From Pseudogymnoascus verrucosus (lineage: Eukaryota), in NCBI GenBank assembly GCA_001662655.1, contig KV460216.1: a stretch of DNA of 64,000 nucleotides; one strand, 5' to 3'. This document shows positions 850 to 64,000 of this stretch, piece by piece. A model generated the notes under the pieces. The model was not told the DNA's origin. It searched no databases and saw only the letters and a list, made by a program, of their open reading frames with translations. The translations under genes and the position numbers were made by a program. Numbering within the stretch: position 1 is the first letter of the stretch; each line of letters opens with the position of its first letter.

Positions 850-1670
850 TGACCATCGTTTGGTCAATCCCAAAGTAGGTTCTCCATCCTCAGTGTTTCC
901 ATAACACAAGCATTCTTCCAGAATTTGGACCCGAAACAGAGCTGACTTTCTTCACTTTGCTCCAGAATACCGGTCGATATCTTTGGCGAGAACCACTCGC
1001 CACGGCGAAAAGCCAGGATTGGCTGGCCCGTAAGTCATCTCACTCTTCATTTCCACCCTTTTCCCTGCCGTGCCTCGAATAGCCAGACCTCAGGGACCAC
1101 ATGTGAACCTATGACCGGACTGGGCCTTGCTTTGTGGGCCTGCTGTCATCTTCGATCCTCGATCTCCCATGATCTCTGTTTGAAAGCAAGCCACTGACAC
1201 TCATACAGGCTGGCGGGCGGCCTTCTGCCGTCCCGCGAGGTCAACATTACCGGCGAGGTTAGCGTGCGCCTCTCTGTCGCCCGCTGATTAAGAATGAAGA
1301 ATCAGCGGGTGACGCGGATGCAAACGAGATGGGCTGATGGGCGGAGGAAGTTTTCGTAGCACTCGAGATCAAGGCTAGGAAACTGATAATACGTTTTATC
1401 AGTTTCGTAGCCTTGATCTCGAGTGCTACGAAAACTTCCTCCGCGGTTACCACCAGCGATCCCACTCTCCGCGAGGTCATGAACCTCTAGGGCATGGACC
1501 CACGCGACATCGACCCGACGGAGGGTGGGATCGCAGCTCCCTTGTAAGTGCTCTCCCTTGCTCCTTCCAGTTGTATGTGCTGACTGATGTTTGATCTAGG
1601 CCAGCATCGCTACACTGTACTGCCGCAAGATACTGGCTTAGGCTTTGTTTCTTCGCCATCTTCGACGTAA
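850..1670 (+). ncRNA. Putative spliced, highly structured non-coding transcript (lncRNA/milRNA host or long 5' leader of the SET gene)
   Basis: Consecutive canonical introns: GTAGGT 875..GCTGAC..CAG 965, GTAAGT 1030..ACTGAC..CAG 1208, GTAAGT 1544..GCTGAC..TAG 1599, further donor GTAAGT 1667. Only a ~47-codon spliced ORF. Exon 1209-1543 contains three hairpins. Confidence 0.5.
1341..1444. repeat. 49-bp near-perfect inverted repeat with 6-nt loop
   Basis: 1341-1389 GCGGAGGAAG...CTGATAA is the reverse complement of 1396-1444 except one G/G mismatch (1378/1407); loop TACGTT. Confidence 0.97.
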
Positions 1671-3611: not shown

Positions 3612-3682
3612 AGGGTGGACCAGTGGGTGAGGAGGGTGCTGAGCGATGGAGATTCTTGGGACGATGGAAATGTTGGCCGAAA

Positions 3683-3780
3683 GGAATGATCGAGAGGTCA
3701 GGGGGAAGTGCAAACGAAATGGTTTAATTTGGGGGTGGGAATGATCGGGAGGTCAGGGGGAAGTGCAAACAAATGGTTTT
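3683..3780. repeat. Direct repeat of ~42 bp, 2 copies, period 55 bp
   Basis: GGAATGATCG(A/G)GAGGTCAGGGGGAAGTGCAAAC(G)AAATGGTTT at 3683 and 3738. Confidence 0.9.
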
Positions 3781-4150
3781 ACTCGGGGGTGAAGTTTGTG
3801 ATGGAAGGGTGCGCGATGGGGGTTGGCAAATGTGTACAAAAGAGAGCACATAGAAATTACGTTGATCAATCGAAGCTTTTTTCCCCCTTTCTTTTTTGAA
3901 CCAAAACGCAAATCAATGATGTACAGAAGCCAGCTCTTTCAACAACCGGTCCACATCCTTATTTGTCTGTTCACAGGATGTCGATGGAATGGAATCAGTT
4001 GCCGTTCAAGTATAATGCCAGATCTTCAAACTCCTATCTATGCTTCTGAATCACTGTGAATGAATATGTGCATGGCTAAAAGTATTCCATTGGTGGTATA
4101 CAAGACAATATTGGTACAAAACATTTCCCCATATACAATACAACCCCTCT

Positions 4151-5071
4151 CTAATCCATCTTTCCTCCAGTCAACTCCTCCGCAATCTTCACCATTCTCT
4201 TGCCCGTCACCTTCGCCGGCGTCTGATAGTAATCCACAGCCTTCTTCTGTGTATTGCTGACCTCGCTCAGCATACTGAAGACCGTCATTGGCGATCCTTC
4301 GGCATCCCAAATATTCGTCTCGTTCTCCCTTCCGTGAACATGTGCAAACGGCCTCTCCGTGAAGATCTTGTCGATCTCAGCATCCAGCTCCTTCTCGGTG
4401 GTGATGAAAGAGCGTGCATGCATGTATAACGAGTGCAGCGAATCGCGGCGTGCCTCCTCCTGAGCCTTGATCTTCGCAGCCACCTTCTCCGCGGACGCAG
4501 CAATGCGAGCCGCTCTGTTCGGGTCGGGGAGGGCACCGTGCTGGAACGTGGCCATGGCGGCTGTGATGGTGGGTGAAGTGAGACGATCGGATTCTCGCTG
4601 GGGTGCATCAACAAGGCGTTGGTTGTTCTCTTGCGTAATGCTGCTCTTGCGTGCAACCTGAGCGTCCTTCTTCACCTTACGGTCGTAAAGCTTGGTCAGC
4701 CCCTCTCGCAGATTCTCACGCCGGGATGCGGCCATGCGTCGTTTCCACGCCGTGTATTCAGAAGGGGTCTTGGTGAGCTGGTGGGCGGCGGTTGGCTCGA
4801 AAGTGGCGCGGGCAATGTATTCAGGGGAGGACTTGTCGCCGGCTCGTTTCGGGAAGATGTTTCGGGGAACTGGGAGGACACCCTTGACATCGACATGCTT
4901 TTGGGCGAAGCGTTGCCGGGGAAGGGGGATCTCGATAAATTTTGGAGATTCAGGGCCAATGGCCTGGCACTGGGACGAGGAGGTGAAAGTGCGCGCTGCG
5001 GACTTGAAGCATAGCGATTGCTTCCCGCGGGCCAAGCTGCCCAGCGAGCTGGAGGGGAGTGACGGCGGCAT
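4151..5071 (-). CDS. Probable mitochondrial small-subunit ribosomal protein (mS26-like)
   Basis: Intronless ~306-aa ORF from MPPSLPSS. Presequence-like N-terminus (ARTFTSSSQCQA), GPESPKFIEIP and WKRRMAASRRENLREGL motifs recalled from fungal mS26-type proteins. Confidence 0.6.
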   Translation of the reverse strand: MPPSLPSSSLGSLARGKQSLCFKSAARTFTSSSQCQAIGPESPKFIEIPLPRQRFAQKHVDVKGVLPVPRNIFPKRAGDKSSPEYIARATFEPTAAHQLTKTPSEYTAWKRRMAASRRENLREGLTKLYDRKVKKDAQVARKSSITQENNQRLVDAPQRESDRLTSPTITAAMATFQHGALPDPNRAARIAASAEKVAAKIKAQEEARRDSLHSLYMHARSFITTEKELDAEIDKIFTERPFAHVHGRENETNIWDAEGSPMTVFSMLSEVSNTQKKAVDYYQTPAKVTGKRMVKIAEELTGGKMD

Positions 5072-59753: not shown

Positions 59754-60439
59754 TTAAACATAAGCCCTGCTTCCCTCCCCACTCCTCCTGCTGCCCCTGC
59801 TACCCCTGCTTCCCCTCCTCGACCTATGCCCATGCCTGCTCCCATGGCTCTCCCTCTTCACCACCACCACCTCCTCCTTATGCCCCCCATGCATAAACGC
59901 CAACATACTCGTAAAGAAAAAGAACAAACAATTCATAATCGACAGCGCCCAGCTCGCCTTAAGCATCGCACACGTCTTACTCAACGGAATCCCATACCCC
60001 CCAAACCTCACGCTCCCCAGGAGCGCAAAGCTCGCCGTATACGAAGTCGTCGAGGTCAGCCCGGTACAGTTATCCCCGGAGATGCCGCGGAGGGTGTAGA
60101 TCCCCCCGATGAAGGCGCCGACGAAGGCGAGGTCGACGAGCGCGACGAAGCGGGCGTTGTTCTTGGAGCGGTGGTAGGTGAAGAGCGTGCCGATGGCCCA
60201 GACGACGGCGAGGACCACGACGATGAAGAGGACGAGGATGGCGTCGGGGGTGAGGGCGTTGGCGGTTACGTAGAGGTGGATGAACCAGGATAGCATGCCT
60301 ACTGCTGGGATCTGGGGGGGGATGTTAGCTAGTTGTTCGAGGAGGAGGTGGGTAGTATGTATGGAGGCAGCAAGGGAGGACGTACGAGGGTGAAGATCTG
60401 GGAGAAGCGCCAGAAGGCGAAGAAGAGTCCGAAGAGCAT
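59754..60439 (-). CDS. MARVEL-like four-TM membrane protein (intron 60312-60385)
   Basis: MLFGLFFAFWRFSQIFTL|IPAVGMLSWF..TPDAILVLFIV..DLAFVGAFI..LRGI..C..KTCAMLKASWAL. Confidence 0.85.
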
Positions 60440-61423
60440 TGTGAGTGGTTTGTAGATGTGAAAGAGGGTGGTGTGTTGGTGATCGGAATGATCGGAAGTG
60501 ATGTTGTCGAGGTCGCAGTGCAGGTGTTTGCGACGACGGATCAGGCGCCTTCTTGTCGCGCTTGGCTCACCGCCTAGGTATACTGAAAAGGACGAATGAA
60601 GCCTTCAGTCTATTTGTGGTGTCGAGTTTGTATTGTACTCGTTGTTGCGTCGATAGACTCTCAAACCGGTATTCTCACTTCGCAGCCTCGCAGTAGTGTT
60701 GAGTTACTGATAAGACAACTTCACGATGCGACAGCAATGAGAGACAGTGTATAAAATATCTCGAGCGATAGATTTATGAAGAGAATAGATAAGTGAAGGT
60801 AGTACAGGAAAGATAGAAGAAGAAGTAGAAGAGTAGGAAGAGGGAATAAAAGCTGCAGGTCGAACGAGCCACTTACATATGTCGCTCCCCGCCATCTTTT
60901 TCTTGTTGCAACCTTGGCTGGTTGGCGAGGATTTGGGGATGGGGATTTGCCAGGGAAAATGGGAAAATGGAGGGGTTGGCGGGGGATTTGGGGGTGGTTG
61001 GGGGTAGTGGAGCCAGGGGTTTTAGGGGATTAGCGAACACGCGAATATTACCAGCTGGCTCTAACTTTTCGAGGGGACGGATATTTATCTTTATATTATT
61101 TATATTATCTATATTATATTGTATATATTTATTACTACGGTATACATTAATATATAATCGATATATAATTGTTGTATTATTAGCGAGATGCTTCCACGTG
61201 GATGAAATGCGGGATTTCATCTCTAAGCCAGGTATAATCAATCACGTGATATCGAGTTTAATAAACCACGTGACCATAATTATAACAACTGGCAATGTGA
61301 CACCAACAATCCCCTCATCCAACGTTCACAAACTACATAACAAATAAACATATTCAAAAGTCCAGGTTCGTCTCTTAATCCACAAAAAACCTGTCCATAT
61401 TAAAACAAACAAACCCCTCCCTC

Positions 61424-61948
61424 ATGGCCACGGCATCCACCTCCACGACCACCCCAACCTCACCCCCTACCAACCCCCTCCTCCACCTCGAACCCCAAAC
61501 CCTCTACCTCCTCCTCTCCCGCCAACAAGTCTCCCTAAAATGGCACTGGTCGCTCTACATCCACGTCTCCCTCGCCTCCGGCGGCTACACGCAACACATC
61601 ACGCGCGCCGACTCCCTCTGGATCCTCGACGCCCGCCGCACCCCTGACGCGAGCTACAACGCTGACATCGTGTGCGCGCTCGCGCTGACGTGGGTCGAGG
61701 CTGAGCTGGAGGATGCGCTCAAAGAGAGGGTGAGGCAGGTGCCGTTGGAGGATACGGAGAGGTGGGGTGGGCTGACGTGTCGGACGTGGGTGTTGAGGGT
61801 GTTGGAGGAGTTGGATGCGGAGGGGTGGATCTCGGTGAGGGTGGGGAGTACGGTGGAGGATGTGGAAGCGGAGGCGAAGGATGGGGCGGCGGCGGCGGCG
61901 GAGGGGGAGGGGGATAGGGTGTTGAGGAGTAAGCATGTTATTCTTTGA
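61424..61948 (+). CDS. Conserved fungal hypothetical protein
   Basis: Intronless 174 aa; LYLLL..WHWSLY..GYTQHIT..VRQVP..LTCRTWVLRVLEEL, a small fungal protein family pattern. Confidence 0.75.
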   Translation: MATASTSTTTPTSPPTNPLLHLEPQTLYLLLSRQQVSLKWHWSLYIHVSLASGGYTQHITRADSLWILDARRTPDASYNADIVCALALTWVEAELEDALKERVRQVPLEDTERWGGLTCRTWVLRVLEELDAEGWISVRVGSTVEDVEAEAKDGAAAAAEGEGDRVLRSKHVIL

Positions 61949-61964
61949 GTGGGTGGGGGAGGGG

Positions 61965-62057
61965 AGGGAGTAAGGCGTAGGGAGTAAGGCGTAGGGAGTA
62001 AGGGGTAGGGAGTAAGGCGTAGGGAGTAAGGGGTAGGGAGTAAGGGGTAGGGAGTAA
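61965..62057. repeat. 14-bp minisatellite AGGGAGTAAGG(C/G)GT, ~6.6 copies
   Basis: Units at 61965, 61979, 61993, 62007, 62021, 62035 and a partial unit at 62049. Confidence 0.95.
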
Positions 62058-62244
62058 TGGGTTGATCACGGCTGAGGTTTTGCTATGGCAGGATTATGGC
62101 GGATATGATTTTATGACTATGACATGACACTACAATGAAAGTTTCCGAACCGCTTCTCCATTATCCAACTCCAAGCGCTAAACTCCCTCTCGCTCACCCC
62201 TGAATTAAAAAGTTACCCCCCTCATGTCCAACTCCACATTAAAC

Positions 62245-64000
62245 TCATGACCCATACGGAAATACTTTCCAAATCCACCTCTCCGTCTTCAGCTCCAGAT
62301 CAAACTCATGTCCCCACACCCCCCGATAAATCCCTACAGCCTCGTCACTCTTCGCCGTCCGCATTGCTTTCGTAAACTCCCAGTACGCCGGCATGAAAGA
62401 CGCGCCCTCCACAATCCCCGACAACCGTCCCCCATCCACGAGCACATTAGAGAAGAAGAGATCTCCATGCGTAAACACCGAGTCATGGGACCGCGAAAAC
62501 GCAGTCGGGATCTCATCCGTCAGGTACTTCATAAACTCGGTCCTACCTAAGAGGCGCATATTCAGGTCTCCCTCTGAGTTGTACGGGCCCGCATTATCTG
62601 AGAGGCGGTTGTCGTAGATAGATCCACCGGAGACATTGGAGTAGCGATATGGCGACGTGTTCTTGATCTTGTGCATTTGAGCGAGAATATTAGACAGGTC
62701 GGCGGCGAGCTGCGCGCGCTCGGCATACGAGGTGCGGTGGATGACGCTCTCGAGGCGCGTGCCGGGGACGCGGGTCATGATGAACCAGTCGACTGAGTCG
62801 TCGGTGAAGGTGTCGATGAGGAGGGGGGCAAGGATGGAAGGGGCTTCGCGCTCGAGGGTGCGGAGGGCGTGGACTTCGTTGTCTCCGGCTATGGTGCAGC
62901 GCTTTGCGTAGAGGCCAAAGGGGAGCTGCTGCACGACGTCGGAGATGTCGTGGCCGTATTTGGATTTTCCTTTTTCGAGGAGATGGCGGTAGCAGGTTAT
63001 GCGGATGAATTTTGGTACGAGGAGCCAGAGGGTGCGGACTATGAGTTGCGTGCTGCGACTGAAGTATGCTGCACAGCACGCAACTCATAGTCCGCACCCT
63101 ACGTTAGCACGTGGTATGTGATCAAGAGGGACAGGTGAACTCGCATTGGGATTGTAGAGGGCCCCAGCCGCCAGATATGCGCTCCTCAACATGGAACTGA
63201 TGGAGGGCGTTGGCAAACTTGAAATGCGTCTTGAGGAGAAAGGGGCTTGGTAGAGGGAGCTGCTTTGGATCCTCGGTCTGTAGAGCGATTGTGTAAGGGG
63301 AGCCAGGGCCGCAGAACGATGATCTATCAGCAAGAAGGATATGATCATAAGGTTCTGGATATATTTCAAAAATGAAGTACTACCCAAATTAGTAAATGCC
63401 GATGACAATGTGCGGCAGTCGATTAGATATGCTCACCTTAGCCGTCAAGTCGTCCTTGCCTGTATCCTCATCAAGCTTGTCCCAACTCTTCGCACCGTGG
63501 ATCCGAACCTGGAGATGCCCGTTTTTAAAGGCGTGCTGTACGCTTGGTGCAAGAAGCAATGCGTTTGCAAGTTTCCCCGGATCGGTTCTGTCTGAAACCA
63601 TGTTCTGCAACCGCGCCACTCTCGACGGCGTCATGAACGCGTCCAGCAGCGACTTTTATGAGTGCTACATTAAATGCGTCAGTATTAAATAGCATGGCCT
63701 GTAGGAATAAACACAATACCTCAGCTCCATCCGCATCTACCAGCTCTGATAGAGCGGGCGGGATAATAAACGTTGGTTCCGGTTCATCGAGCTGTTGGCG
63801 GTCAGGTGGGGTTACGCAACACCTGGCAGGATCGCGACGAGCAACCAGGTCTCTAAGGGAAGCATCAAATGGCGTTTGGTGAGAGACTACTTGAGGTTTT
63901 AGTACTGGTCTCGACTTGCGGGAATGAATGGAGATACTCACTGACAGCTACCAGCTCATGCCAGTCCTGTTTGAGGACGCGCAAAGCCTCTTCCACCGGC
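62245..64000 (-). pseudogene. HNH-like nuclease domain plus APH/choline-kinase-like fusion gene with lesions (5' end outside window)
   Basis: Spliced frame RDLVARRDPARCCVT..NALLLAPSVQHAFKNGH..LPLPSPFLLKTH|..VQQLPFGLYAK..NEVHAL..FIMTRVPG..FTHGDL..NVLV. Lesions: probable in-frame TAA 63656-63658 and loss of DW from the IVDWE motif. Confidence 0.75.
63029..63100. repeat. Perfect 27-bp inverted repeat, 18-nt loop
   Basis: AGGGTGCGGACTATGAGTTGCGTGCTG (63029-63055) and its exact reverse complement (63074-63100). Confidence 0.98.

What the first reader, a model, noticed from the sequence alone, without database searches (positions are those of the whole stretch)
63029..63144. GC-AG intron whose 3' splice site is caged in the loop of a perfect 27-bp hairpin
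On the - strand the HNH and kinase frames join in phase through an intron with donor GCGAGT (63144), branch GCTAAC (63108-63103) and acceptor CAG (63071-63069). The 27 nt between branch and acceptor are an exact inverted copy of the downstream exon, so the acceptor lies in an 18-nt loop. This would be expected to block or gate splicing between an HNH-only and an HNH-kinase product, and it creates dsRNA. It is either a structural splice switch or a template-switch mutation that inactivated the gene.
Basis: partly seen in the sequence, partly recalled or inferred. Interest (0 to 1): 0.7.

Follow-up and report, generated by a model that had tools for sequence, protein, structure and literature searches.

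The report
Copying-error hairpin in decaying fungal gene
The perfect hairpin over this fungal intron's splice site is real, but it is a recent DNA-copying accident that close relatives lack, sitting in a gene that is damaged elsewhere too, so it is almost certainly not an evolved splicing switch.

Summary
The 76-nt GC-AG intron, the branch motif, the acceptor and the perfect 27-bp inverted repeat with an 18-nt spacer are all at the stated coordinates. Orthologous proteins confirm the exon junction.

The hairpin is not conserved. All 3 related organisms laid on the locus (96-97% identical) lack 22 nt of the intronic arm and have an ordinary 54-nt intron. The arm also copies an exon substitution that none of the three has, so it was copied from this lineage's own exon after the lineages split. 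The pattern fits one short-range template switch (type 3-2-1-4) primed by a 3-nt match.

The HNH-like/APH-kinase gene has two other lesions. One is a stop at codon 130, upstream of most of the HNH-like region, avoidable only through an AAG acceptor. The other is loss of the kinase's Asp-Trp, whose Asp aligns with the Mg-binding Asp. The stem does not melt in silico up to 95 C. Similar perfect hairpins occur about once per 300 kb in a sample of this genome.

Verdict: a known mutation type in a decaying gene. Whether it blocks splicing, or came first, is untested; no RNA run was listed.

The parts
63069..63144 (-). Intron 4 of the HNH-like/APH gene, GC-AG, 76 nt (54 nt in relatives)
63139..63144 (-). 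GC donor GCGAGT; older than the hairpin (X2 has the same GC)
   Evidence: all four G>A differences of X2 are listed and none is at 63143; X3 and X4 not readable at this place
63127..63132 (-). Alternative in-frame GT donor (GTCCCT) used by 4 database gene models (extra residues CEFT); absent from more distant homologues
63103..63108 (-). Branch motif GCTAAC (ACTAAC in X2); branch A at 63104
63074..63100 (-). Intronic arm: reverse-complement copy of the exon. About 24 nt (63077-63100) are new; 63074-63076 were already there
63084..63086 (-). New in-frame GAG inside the copied arm, 20 nt from the branch A; purine-AG and inside the stem
63056..63073 (-). 18-nt spacer holding the acceptor and the first 13 exon bases
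63069..63071 (-). Acceptor CAG; 35 nt from the branch A here, 13 nt in relatives
63029..63055 (-). Exonic arm (template of the copy), coding sequence of the kinase exon; 63053-63055 match 63074-63076 (priming microhomology)
63038..63038 (+). Substitution (A here, G in X2, X3 and X4) that the intronic arm mirrors at 63091
62245..63068 (-). Exon 5: APH-like kinase domain (PF01636, E 9e-16)
62407..62408 (-). Site of a 6-nt deletion removing Asp-Trp of the GIVDWE motif
63145..63379 (-). Exon 4 (end of the HNH-like region and linker)
63437..63664 (-). Exon 3 (HNH-like region)
63656..63658 (-). In-frame TAA at codon 130, where orthologues have a sense codon; an AAG at 63655-63653 would skip it in frame
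63720..63886 (-). Exon 2
63942..64000 (-). 3' part of exon 1 (start codon lies 155 nt beyond the window end, in L003)

Best explanation
The hairpin is the product of one short-range template-switch mutation, in a gene that is decaying. The ancestor had a 54-nt GC-AG intron with 13 nt from the branch A to the acceptor. During DNA synthesis the polymerase stopped just inside the intron's 3' end, where three bases (63074-63076) are complementary to three exon bases 18 nt away (63053-63055). It switched there, copied about 24 exon bases in reverse complement and returned, for a net gain of 22 nt. That single step made the perfect inverted repeat with the acceptor in its spacer (four-point type 3-2-1-4, mirror 1-4-3-2). 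The hairpin has no evolved regulatory role. If the gene is transcribed, the stem would form at all growth temperatures and probably lowers splicing, but the outcome hardly matters, since the gene also has a premature stop and a kinase lacking its metal-binding Asp. SHOWN: the ancestral and derived states, the direction of copying, the other lesions. INFERRED: that it was one replication event, the priming step, reduced splicing, loss of kinase activity.
For:: 3 of 3 other organisms laid (X2, X3, X4; 47 and 53 differing letters in 1421 for X2 and X4) show the same 22 nt missing inside the intronic arm. All three have the 6 nt for Asp-Trp. All three have G at 63038 where the window has A, and the arm mirrors the window's A; the relatives' state keeps the 3-nt match at the switch point and gives a 54-nt intron, the size of the gene's other introns (55, 55 and 57 nt). 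PMC5453318 (results read): this event type creates an inverted repeat and was 31% of 794 filtered human-chimp events; the orthologous splice pattern stops after 129 aa, while P0004, P0028-P0032, P0044, P0045, P0047 and P0050 read through that codon. Asp present in 15 of 17 aligned homologues and Trp in 17 of 17. One search aligns that Asp with the FIDC Asp of APH(3')-IIa; PMC3691515 names Asp208 of APH(3')-IIIa as a Mg ligand (equating the two is my inference); 2 perfect repeats with arms of 20 or more and loops up to 60 in 600 kb sampled from G000, 2 more in the window, and 0 mirror repeats in the same 664 kb.
Against: Only one isolate of this lineage was seen (X1, possibly the source), so whether the arm is strain-private or fixed in a species is unknown. 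No RNA was available, so silence and splice failure are unshown. The stop can be skipped in frame through AAG 63655-63653, giving a 551-aa frame; purine-AG acceptors were 5.69% of 2022 Fusarium introns (PMC5677156). One base (63101) is explained by neither the template nor the relatives' state. The relatives' intron is read from gap rows, and 60 of 100 substitution rows were not shown. P0050, a more distant homologue, also has Val at the 63038 codon. Sequence alone cannot separate replication switching from fold-back synthesis during break repair.
Confidence: 0.88

Rival explanations
1. An evolved structural splice switch gates intron 4 between an HNH-only product (retained intron) and an HNH-kinase product, for example with temperature.
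For: The geometry is right: the acceptor sits in the spacer and the stem starts 4 nt after the branch A. With the AAG rescue, retention gives a 284-aa product and splicing a 551-aa one. The GC donor is a weak site (established knowledge).
Against: Absent from 3 of 3 relatives. No covariation is possible in a single lineage. The exonic arm stays at least 93% paired from 4 to 95 C. The full product would lack the kinase's Asp-Trp, and the default splice pattern stops at codon 130. The GC donor predates the arm (X2).
Confidence: 0.03
2. The same inverted copy arose by fold-back (templated-insertion) synthesis during double-strand-break repair and not at a replication fork. It is equally accidental.
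For: A 3-nt priming match, a short templated tract and one unexplained junction base (63101) fit this too (the repair mechanism is recalled). The order 3-2-1-4 is compatible with intra-strand fold-back.
Against: Little ancestral sequence is lost at the junction (1-3 nt). PMC5453318 argues that events of these types are mostly inter-strand switches.
Confidence: 0.07
3. An assembly or library artefact (fold-back chimera).
For: Perfect inverted repeats are a known chimera shape (recalled), and X1 may be the same sample as the window.
Against: A separate assembly of run X1 holds the whole 1421-nt stretch in one 16-kb contig at depth 184 with 0 differences. The arms are shorter than the 31-letter words used by that assembly.
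Confidence: 0.01
4. A small mobile element, introner-like element or transposon footprint.
For: Such elements make hairpins (recalled).
Against: One arm is ancestral coding sequence shared with relatives and orthologous proteins. The only matches in G000 are the locus itself. No target-site duplication is visible.
Confidence: 0.01

Closest known systems
Short-range template-switch mutations, four-point model, type 1-4-3-2 / 3-2-1-4 (Loytynoja and Goldman 2017, PMC5453318; abstract and results read)
   Same: A cluster of indels against relatives is explained by one reverse-complement copy of an adjacent fragment. It creates a perfect inverted repeat with an uninverted spacer, the copied tract exceeds their 14-bp noise floor, and it is lineage-specific.
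   Different: Fungal genome. The copy crosses an intron-exon boundary so that the 3' splice site ends up in the spacer.
Template switching as the origin of RNA hairpins (Monttinen and Loytynoja 2022, PMC8794818, abstract read; de novo miRNAs, 10.1101/2023.04.19.537475, search listing only)
   Same: One mutation makes a perfect, Watson-Crick-only stem in a transcript.
   Different: No evidence that this stem is expressed, processed or retained by selection.
Template switching in S. cerevisiae coding genes (Abraham and Hazkani-Covo 2021, PMC8604942; abstract read)
   Same: Recent template-switch events inside fungal genes, found by comparing strains.
   Different: Those homogenise existing imperfect arms or invert spacers in coding DNA; here a new arm of about 24 nt was built from a 3-nt match, in an intron.
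RNA structures at yeast 3' splice sites (walking-stem reporter libraries, PMC12637734, sections 7 and 11 and passages read; the APE2 thermosensor is recalled, not read)
   Same: A stem across the branch-to-acceptor region and the exon. In the reporter study every 19-nt insertion between branch site and 3' splice site lowered output.
   Different: Natural switches are conserved and marginally stable (recalled); this stem is unconserved and does not melt in silico. The reporter study found splicing relatively insensitive to stems engaging the 3' splice site.
Fungal HNH_2-like + APH (PF01636) two-domain proteins; closest named homologues are Pseudogymnoascus hypothetical proteins (P0028, 94% in the kinase exon)
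   Same: Same exon junctions, length about 555 aa, APH fold.
   Different: This allele has a stop at codon 130, lacks Asp-Trp and carries the hairpin.

Membership tests
Short-range template-switch mutation (type 3-2-1-4) | Derived segment is the exact reverse complement of a nearby fragment | tested here: met
   27 of 27 nt, 18 nt away
Short-range template-switch mutation (type 3-2-1-4) | Relatives show the ancestral state, and a linear alignment shows a cluster of indels at the site | tested here: met
   3 of 3 relatives have four gap rows (1+6+4+11 nt) at 63077-63101
Short-range template-switch mutation (type 3-2-1-4) | Copied tract of 14 bp or more and above a reversed-copy control | tested here: met
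   About 24 nt new; 4 inverted versus 0 mirror repeats with arms of 20 or more in 664 kb. My control counts repeats in one genome, not events between genomes as in the paper.
Short-range template-switch mutation (type 3-2-1-4) | Arose in one step at a replication fork | not testable with these tools
   Inferred from parsimony; base 63101 unexplained
Regulatory RNA structure at a 3' splice site | Conserved in orthologues, with covariation | tested here: not met
   Absent in X2, X3, X4
Regulatory RNA structure at a 3' splice site | Switchable in the physiological range | tested here: not met
   In silico only: exonic arm unpaired 0.00-0.01 from 4 to 70 C and 0.07 at 95 C; protein- or helicase-driven opening not testable
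Regulatory RNA structure at a 3' splice site | Both isoforms can give functional products | tested here: not met
   Stop at codon 130 in the orthologous pattern; kinase lacks Asp-Trp
Regulatory RNA structure at a 3' splice site | Splicing changes when the stem is disrupted | not testable with these tools
   No RNA holder listed; needs a minigene
GC-AG spliceosomal intron | GC donor, CTRAY branch motif and YAG acceptor at a position that restores the orthologous protein | tested here: met
   GC shared with X2
GC-AG spliceosomal intron | Spliced reads using the GC donor | not testable with these tools
   No RNA; 4 database models use a GT 12 nt downstream instead
Active APH-family kinase | Brenner motif HxDxxxxN | tested here: met
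   HGDLFFSN present (motif from PMC3691515)
Active APH-family kinase | Mg-binding Asp of the D-W/D-x-G motif | tested here: not met
   Asp-Trp deleted
HNH_2 (PF13391) domain | Pfam hit above the gathering score | tested here: not met
   0 of 15 full-length homologues; best E 0.12 in P0039
HNH_2 (PF13391) domain | Nearest clusters by language-model features are HNH_2 | tested here: met
   P0028 residues 75-272: score 0.94, 206 of 256 features shared, HNH_2 on 67% of members; a lead, not calibrated for parts of proteins
MITE or introner-like element | Multiple dispersed copies with their own termini | tested here: not met
   Only self-matches in G000 (the tool warns that counts are lower bounds); one arm is coding sequence

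The most novel reading that the evidence does not exclude
The template switch was the first hit. One copying error caged the acceptor, blocked splicing of intron 4 or made the transcript a small-RNA source that silenced the locus, and the stop codon and Asp-Trp deletion followed once selection was lost. That would be a natural case of gene inactivation by de novo RNA structure with every splice signal and codon left intact, a route invisible to annotation pipelines. I did not see such a case among the 15 listed of 80 papers (titles and abstract starts only).
Probability: 0.12. Interest if true: 0.45.

Novelty: new member of a known kind. Interest (0 to 1): 0.15.

Why it matters
It is a clean fungal example of a template-switch mutation: ancestral state, priming match and direction of copying can all be read. 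It is also a caution for scans of this kind. A perfect, mismatch-free stem over a splice site points to a recent copying event more than to selection, and such hairpins occur roughly once per 300 kb in the part of this genome sampled. If the hairpin proved to be the first lesion, it would show that one mutation can switch off a gene through RNA structure alone. The ancestral and derived introns make a ready natural pair for testing how a filamentous-fungal spliceosome handles a long stem starting 4 nt after the branch point.

Tried and rejected
This is no evidence on expression.

Metagenome scan with the kinase exon returned 4 loci at 37-43% identity, too distant for the intron, so not used. 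Eight paralogous kinase matches in G000 at 25-40% identity were not analysed further. A paralogous contig in X3 (record 7) skips 206 nt with 183 other letters between; it is not counted as an orthologue.

One search listed 40 of 100 substitution rows and none above 63323, so the relatives' base at the stop codon could not be read there. X2 has one unlisted T>G, which is the change expected, but its place is not shown; the sense codon rests on protein records.

P0046 was dropped as independent evidence because it equals a spliced model of this same allele.

Other AGs after the branch: 63099 (5 nt from the branch A), 63059 and 63053 are out of frame; 63084 (GAG) and 63039 are in frame but inside the stem.

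The fold of P0028 (pLDDT 86.8) searched against PDB and BFVD listed only kinase-type matches near the top; the N-terminal domain was not searched alone, so this says nothing on HNH.

One search had an off-by-one at exon 1 and its frame results were discarded (redone). Searches of earlier findings returned nothing bearing on this locus. No supplements were read.

Full report
Observation. On the - strand the donor GCGAGT starts at 63144, the branch motif GCTAAC is at 63108-63103 and the acceptor CAG at 63071-63069, giving a 76-nt intron. Arms 63074-63100 and 63029-63055 are 27 nt, fully complementary and 18 nt apart. The chance expectation is about 2e-10 per window, and the RNA fold has z = -7.05 with 0 of 200 shuffles as stable. 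The stem begins 4 nt after the branch A. In the predicted fold two more pairs extend it into the spacer, the C and A of the acceptor are mostly unpaired and the G is mostly paired. A search of G000 with the whole gene finds only the locus and its own inverted match.

The gene. The window is G000:C11:186001-250000, in a 30.2-Mb genome. The gene has five exons and starts 155 nt past the window end. The last exon is an APH-like kinase (PF01636, E 9e-16). The closest named homologues are two-domain Pseudogymnoascus proteins of about 555 aa (P0028, 94% identical in the kinase exon). Their sequence across the junction matches splicing from 63144 to 63069. Four database models add the residues CEFT by using a GT 12 nt downstream; I infer a gene-finder preference for GT, since PMC5677156 (passages read) notes that Augustus did not recognise GC-AG introns. 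The N-terminal part is HNH-like only by a weak standard: 0 of 15 homologues pass Pfam's HNH_2 cut-off, while the ESM Atlas ranks HNH_2 clusters first at 0.94.

The decisive comparison. I laid four of 20 listed runs on 62300-63720. X1, which may be the source of this DNA, matches with 0 differences in one contig, which argues against an assembly error. X2, X3 and X4 are three other organisms from three studies, about 96-97% identical (47 and 53 differing letters in 1421 for X2 and X4). All three lack the same 22 nt inside the intronic arm (gap rows at 63077, 63079, 63086 and 63091 of 1, 6, 4 and 11 nt). Removing those positions gives a 54-nt intron with 13 nt from the branch A to the AG, like the gene's other introns of 55, 55 and 57 nt. 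All three also have G at 63038 in the exonic arm where the window has A, and the intronic arm mirrors the window's A at 63091. So the arm was most simply copied from this lineage's own exon after that substitution. The GC donor is older: all four G>A differences of X2 are listed and none is at 63143. The table showed 40 of 100 substitution rows, so X3 and X4 could not be read there.

Mechanism. In the relatives' state the three bases 63074-63076 already complement 63053-63055. A polymerase pausing there can switch strands, copy 63052-63029 in reverse complement and return, replacing 1-3 ancestral bases. In the four-point model of PMC5453318 (abstract and results read) this is order 3-2-1-4, mirror 1-4-3-2, which creates an inverted repeat and made up 31% of 794 filtered human-chimp events. 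PMC8794818 and PMC8604942 (abstracts read) report template switching as a source of RNA stems and of changes in yeast coding genes. Base 63101 fits neither the template nor the relatives and is unexplained. Replication switching and fold-back repair cannot be told apart for a single event.

The gene is damaged independently. With orthologous splice sites the frame stops after 129 aa at TAA 63658-63656, where P0004, P0028-P0032, P0044, P0045, P0047 and P0050 have a sense codon. An AAG 12 nt downstream skips the stop in frame (551 aa). P0046, a model of this same allele and so not independent, uses it. Purine-AG acceptors were 5.69% of 2022 Fusarium introns (PMC5677156), and a TAG comes first here. 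The kinase lacks Asp-Trp of GIVDWE. The six bases are present in X2, X3 and X4; the Asp is in 15 of 17 aligned homologues and the Trp in 17 of 17. That Asp aligns with the FIDC Asp of APH(3')-IIa, which I equate with Asp208 of APH(3')-IIIa, a Mg ligand according to PMC3691515 (two passages). Loss of kinase activity is inferred, not measured. The order of the three lesions is unknown.

What the stem would do. In silico the exonic arm is at least 99% paired from 4 to 70 C and 93% at 95 C, so a thermal switch is implausible. Whether it blocks splicing is open. In a yeast reporter study (PMC12637734; passages and sections 7 and 11) every 19-nt insertion between branch site and 3' splice site lowered output, which favours harm. 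My estimate is reduced splicing, by inference only. No RNA holder was listed.

Background. In 600 kb sampled from six contigs of G000 there are 2 perfect inverted repeats with arms of 20 nt or more and loops up to 60. The window holds 2 more, and mirror repeats number 0 in the same 664 kb. Extrapolating the unbiased 2 in 600 kb gives very roughly 100 in the genome. The other hairpin in the window (1341-1444) looks like the same kind of event: a related stretch on C29 matches its left arm and left flank but has no second arm.

Novelty and verdict. The mutation type is known. A search for template switch, intron, splice site, inverted repeat and splicing returned 80 papers; none of the 15 listed appeared from title and abstract start to describe a template switch caging a splice site, which is a weak negative. 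Earlier findings of this scan held nothing on this locus. Observation confirmed; switch reading not supported (0.03); template-switch origin in a decaying gene supported (0.88). The reading that the hairpin was the inactivating first hit stays open at about 0.12. Interest 0.15.

Noticed in passing
window 1341-1444: A second, larger palindrome: 52-nt arms, 96% complementary, no spacer (37-nt perfect core). A related stretch at G000:C29:284448-284505 (L019) matches the left arm and about 90 nt of left flank but has no right arm, suggesting another fold-back or template-switch copy. Two weaker hairpins flank it (1263-1326, 1456-1534).
   Followed up: partly
G000:C4:115578-115712 and G000:C3:154450-154499 (within L051-L060 and L041-L050): Perfect inverted repeats of 40 bp (55-nt loop) and 23 bp (4-nt loop) found in the background sample.
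   Followed up: no
window 61947-62072: Tandem array of a 14-nt unit downstream of the kinase gene's stop (7 overlapping copies reported at 14-nt spacing).
   Followed up: no
L003 about 3645-4400, - strand (beyond the window end): A two-exon gene upstream whose sequence reads like a secreted GH25 lysozyme (recalled resemblance, not searched).
   Followed up: no
window 63101-63112, - strand: The unexplained base at 63101 completes a 4-bp mini-hairpin (ACGT-GCTA-ACGT) that pairs the branch A in the minimum-energy fold and stacks on the long stem.
   Followed up: partly
alignment A1 (P0028-P0050): In most family members the position where fungal HNH_2 domains have a His (recalled motif) reads TFIIP; P0038 and P0042 keep a His there, suggesting a mostly inactive HNH-like domain. 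P0035 has also lost both kinase aspartates, so decay of this family recurs.
   Followed up: no
window 61379-61948 (+) and 59754-60460 (-): Neighbouring ORFs downstream of the kinase gene: a 189-aa frame on + and a two-exon membrane-protein-like gene on -; not searched.
   Followed up: no
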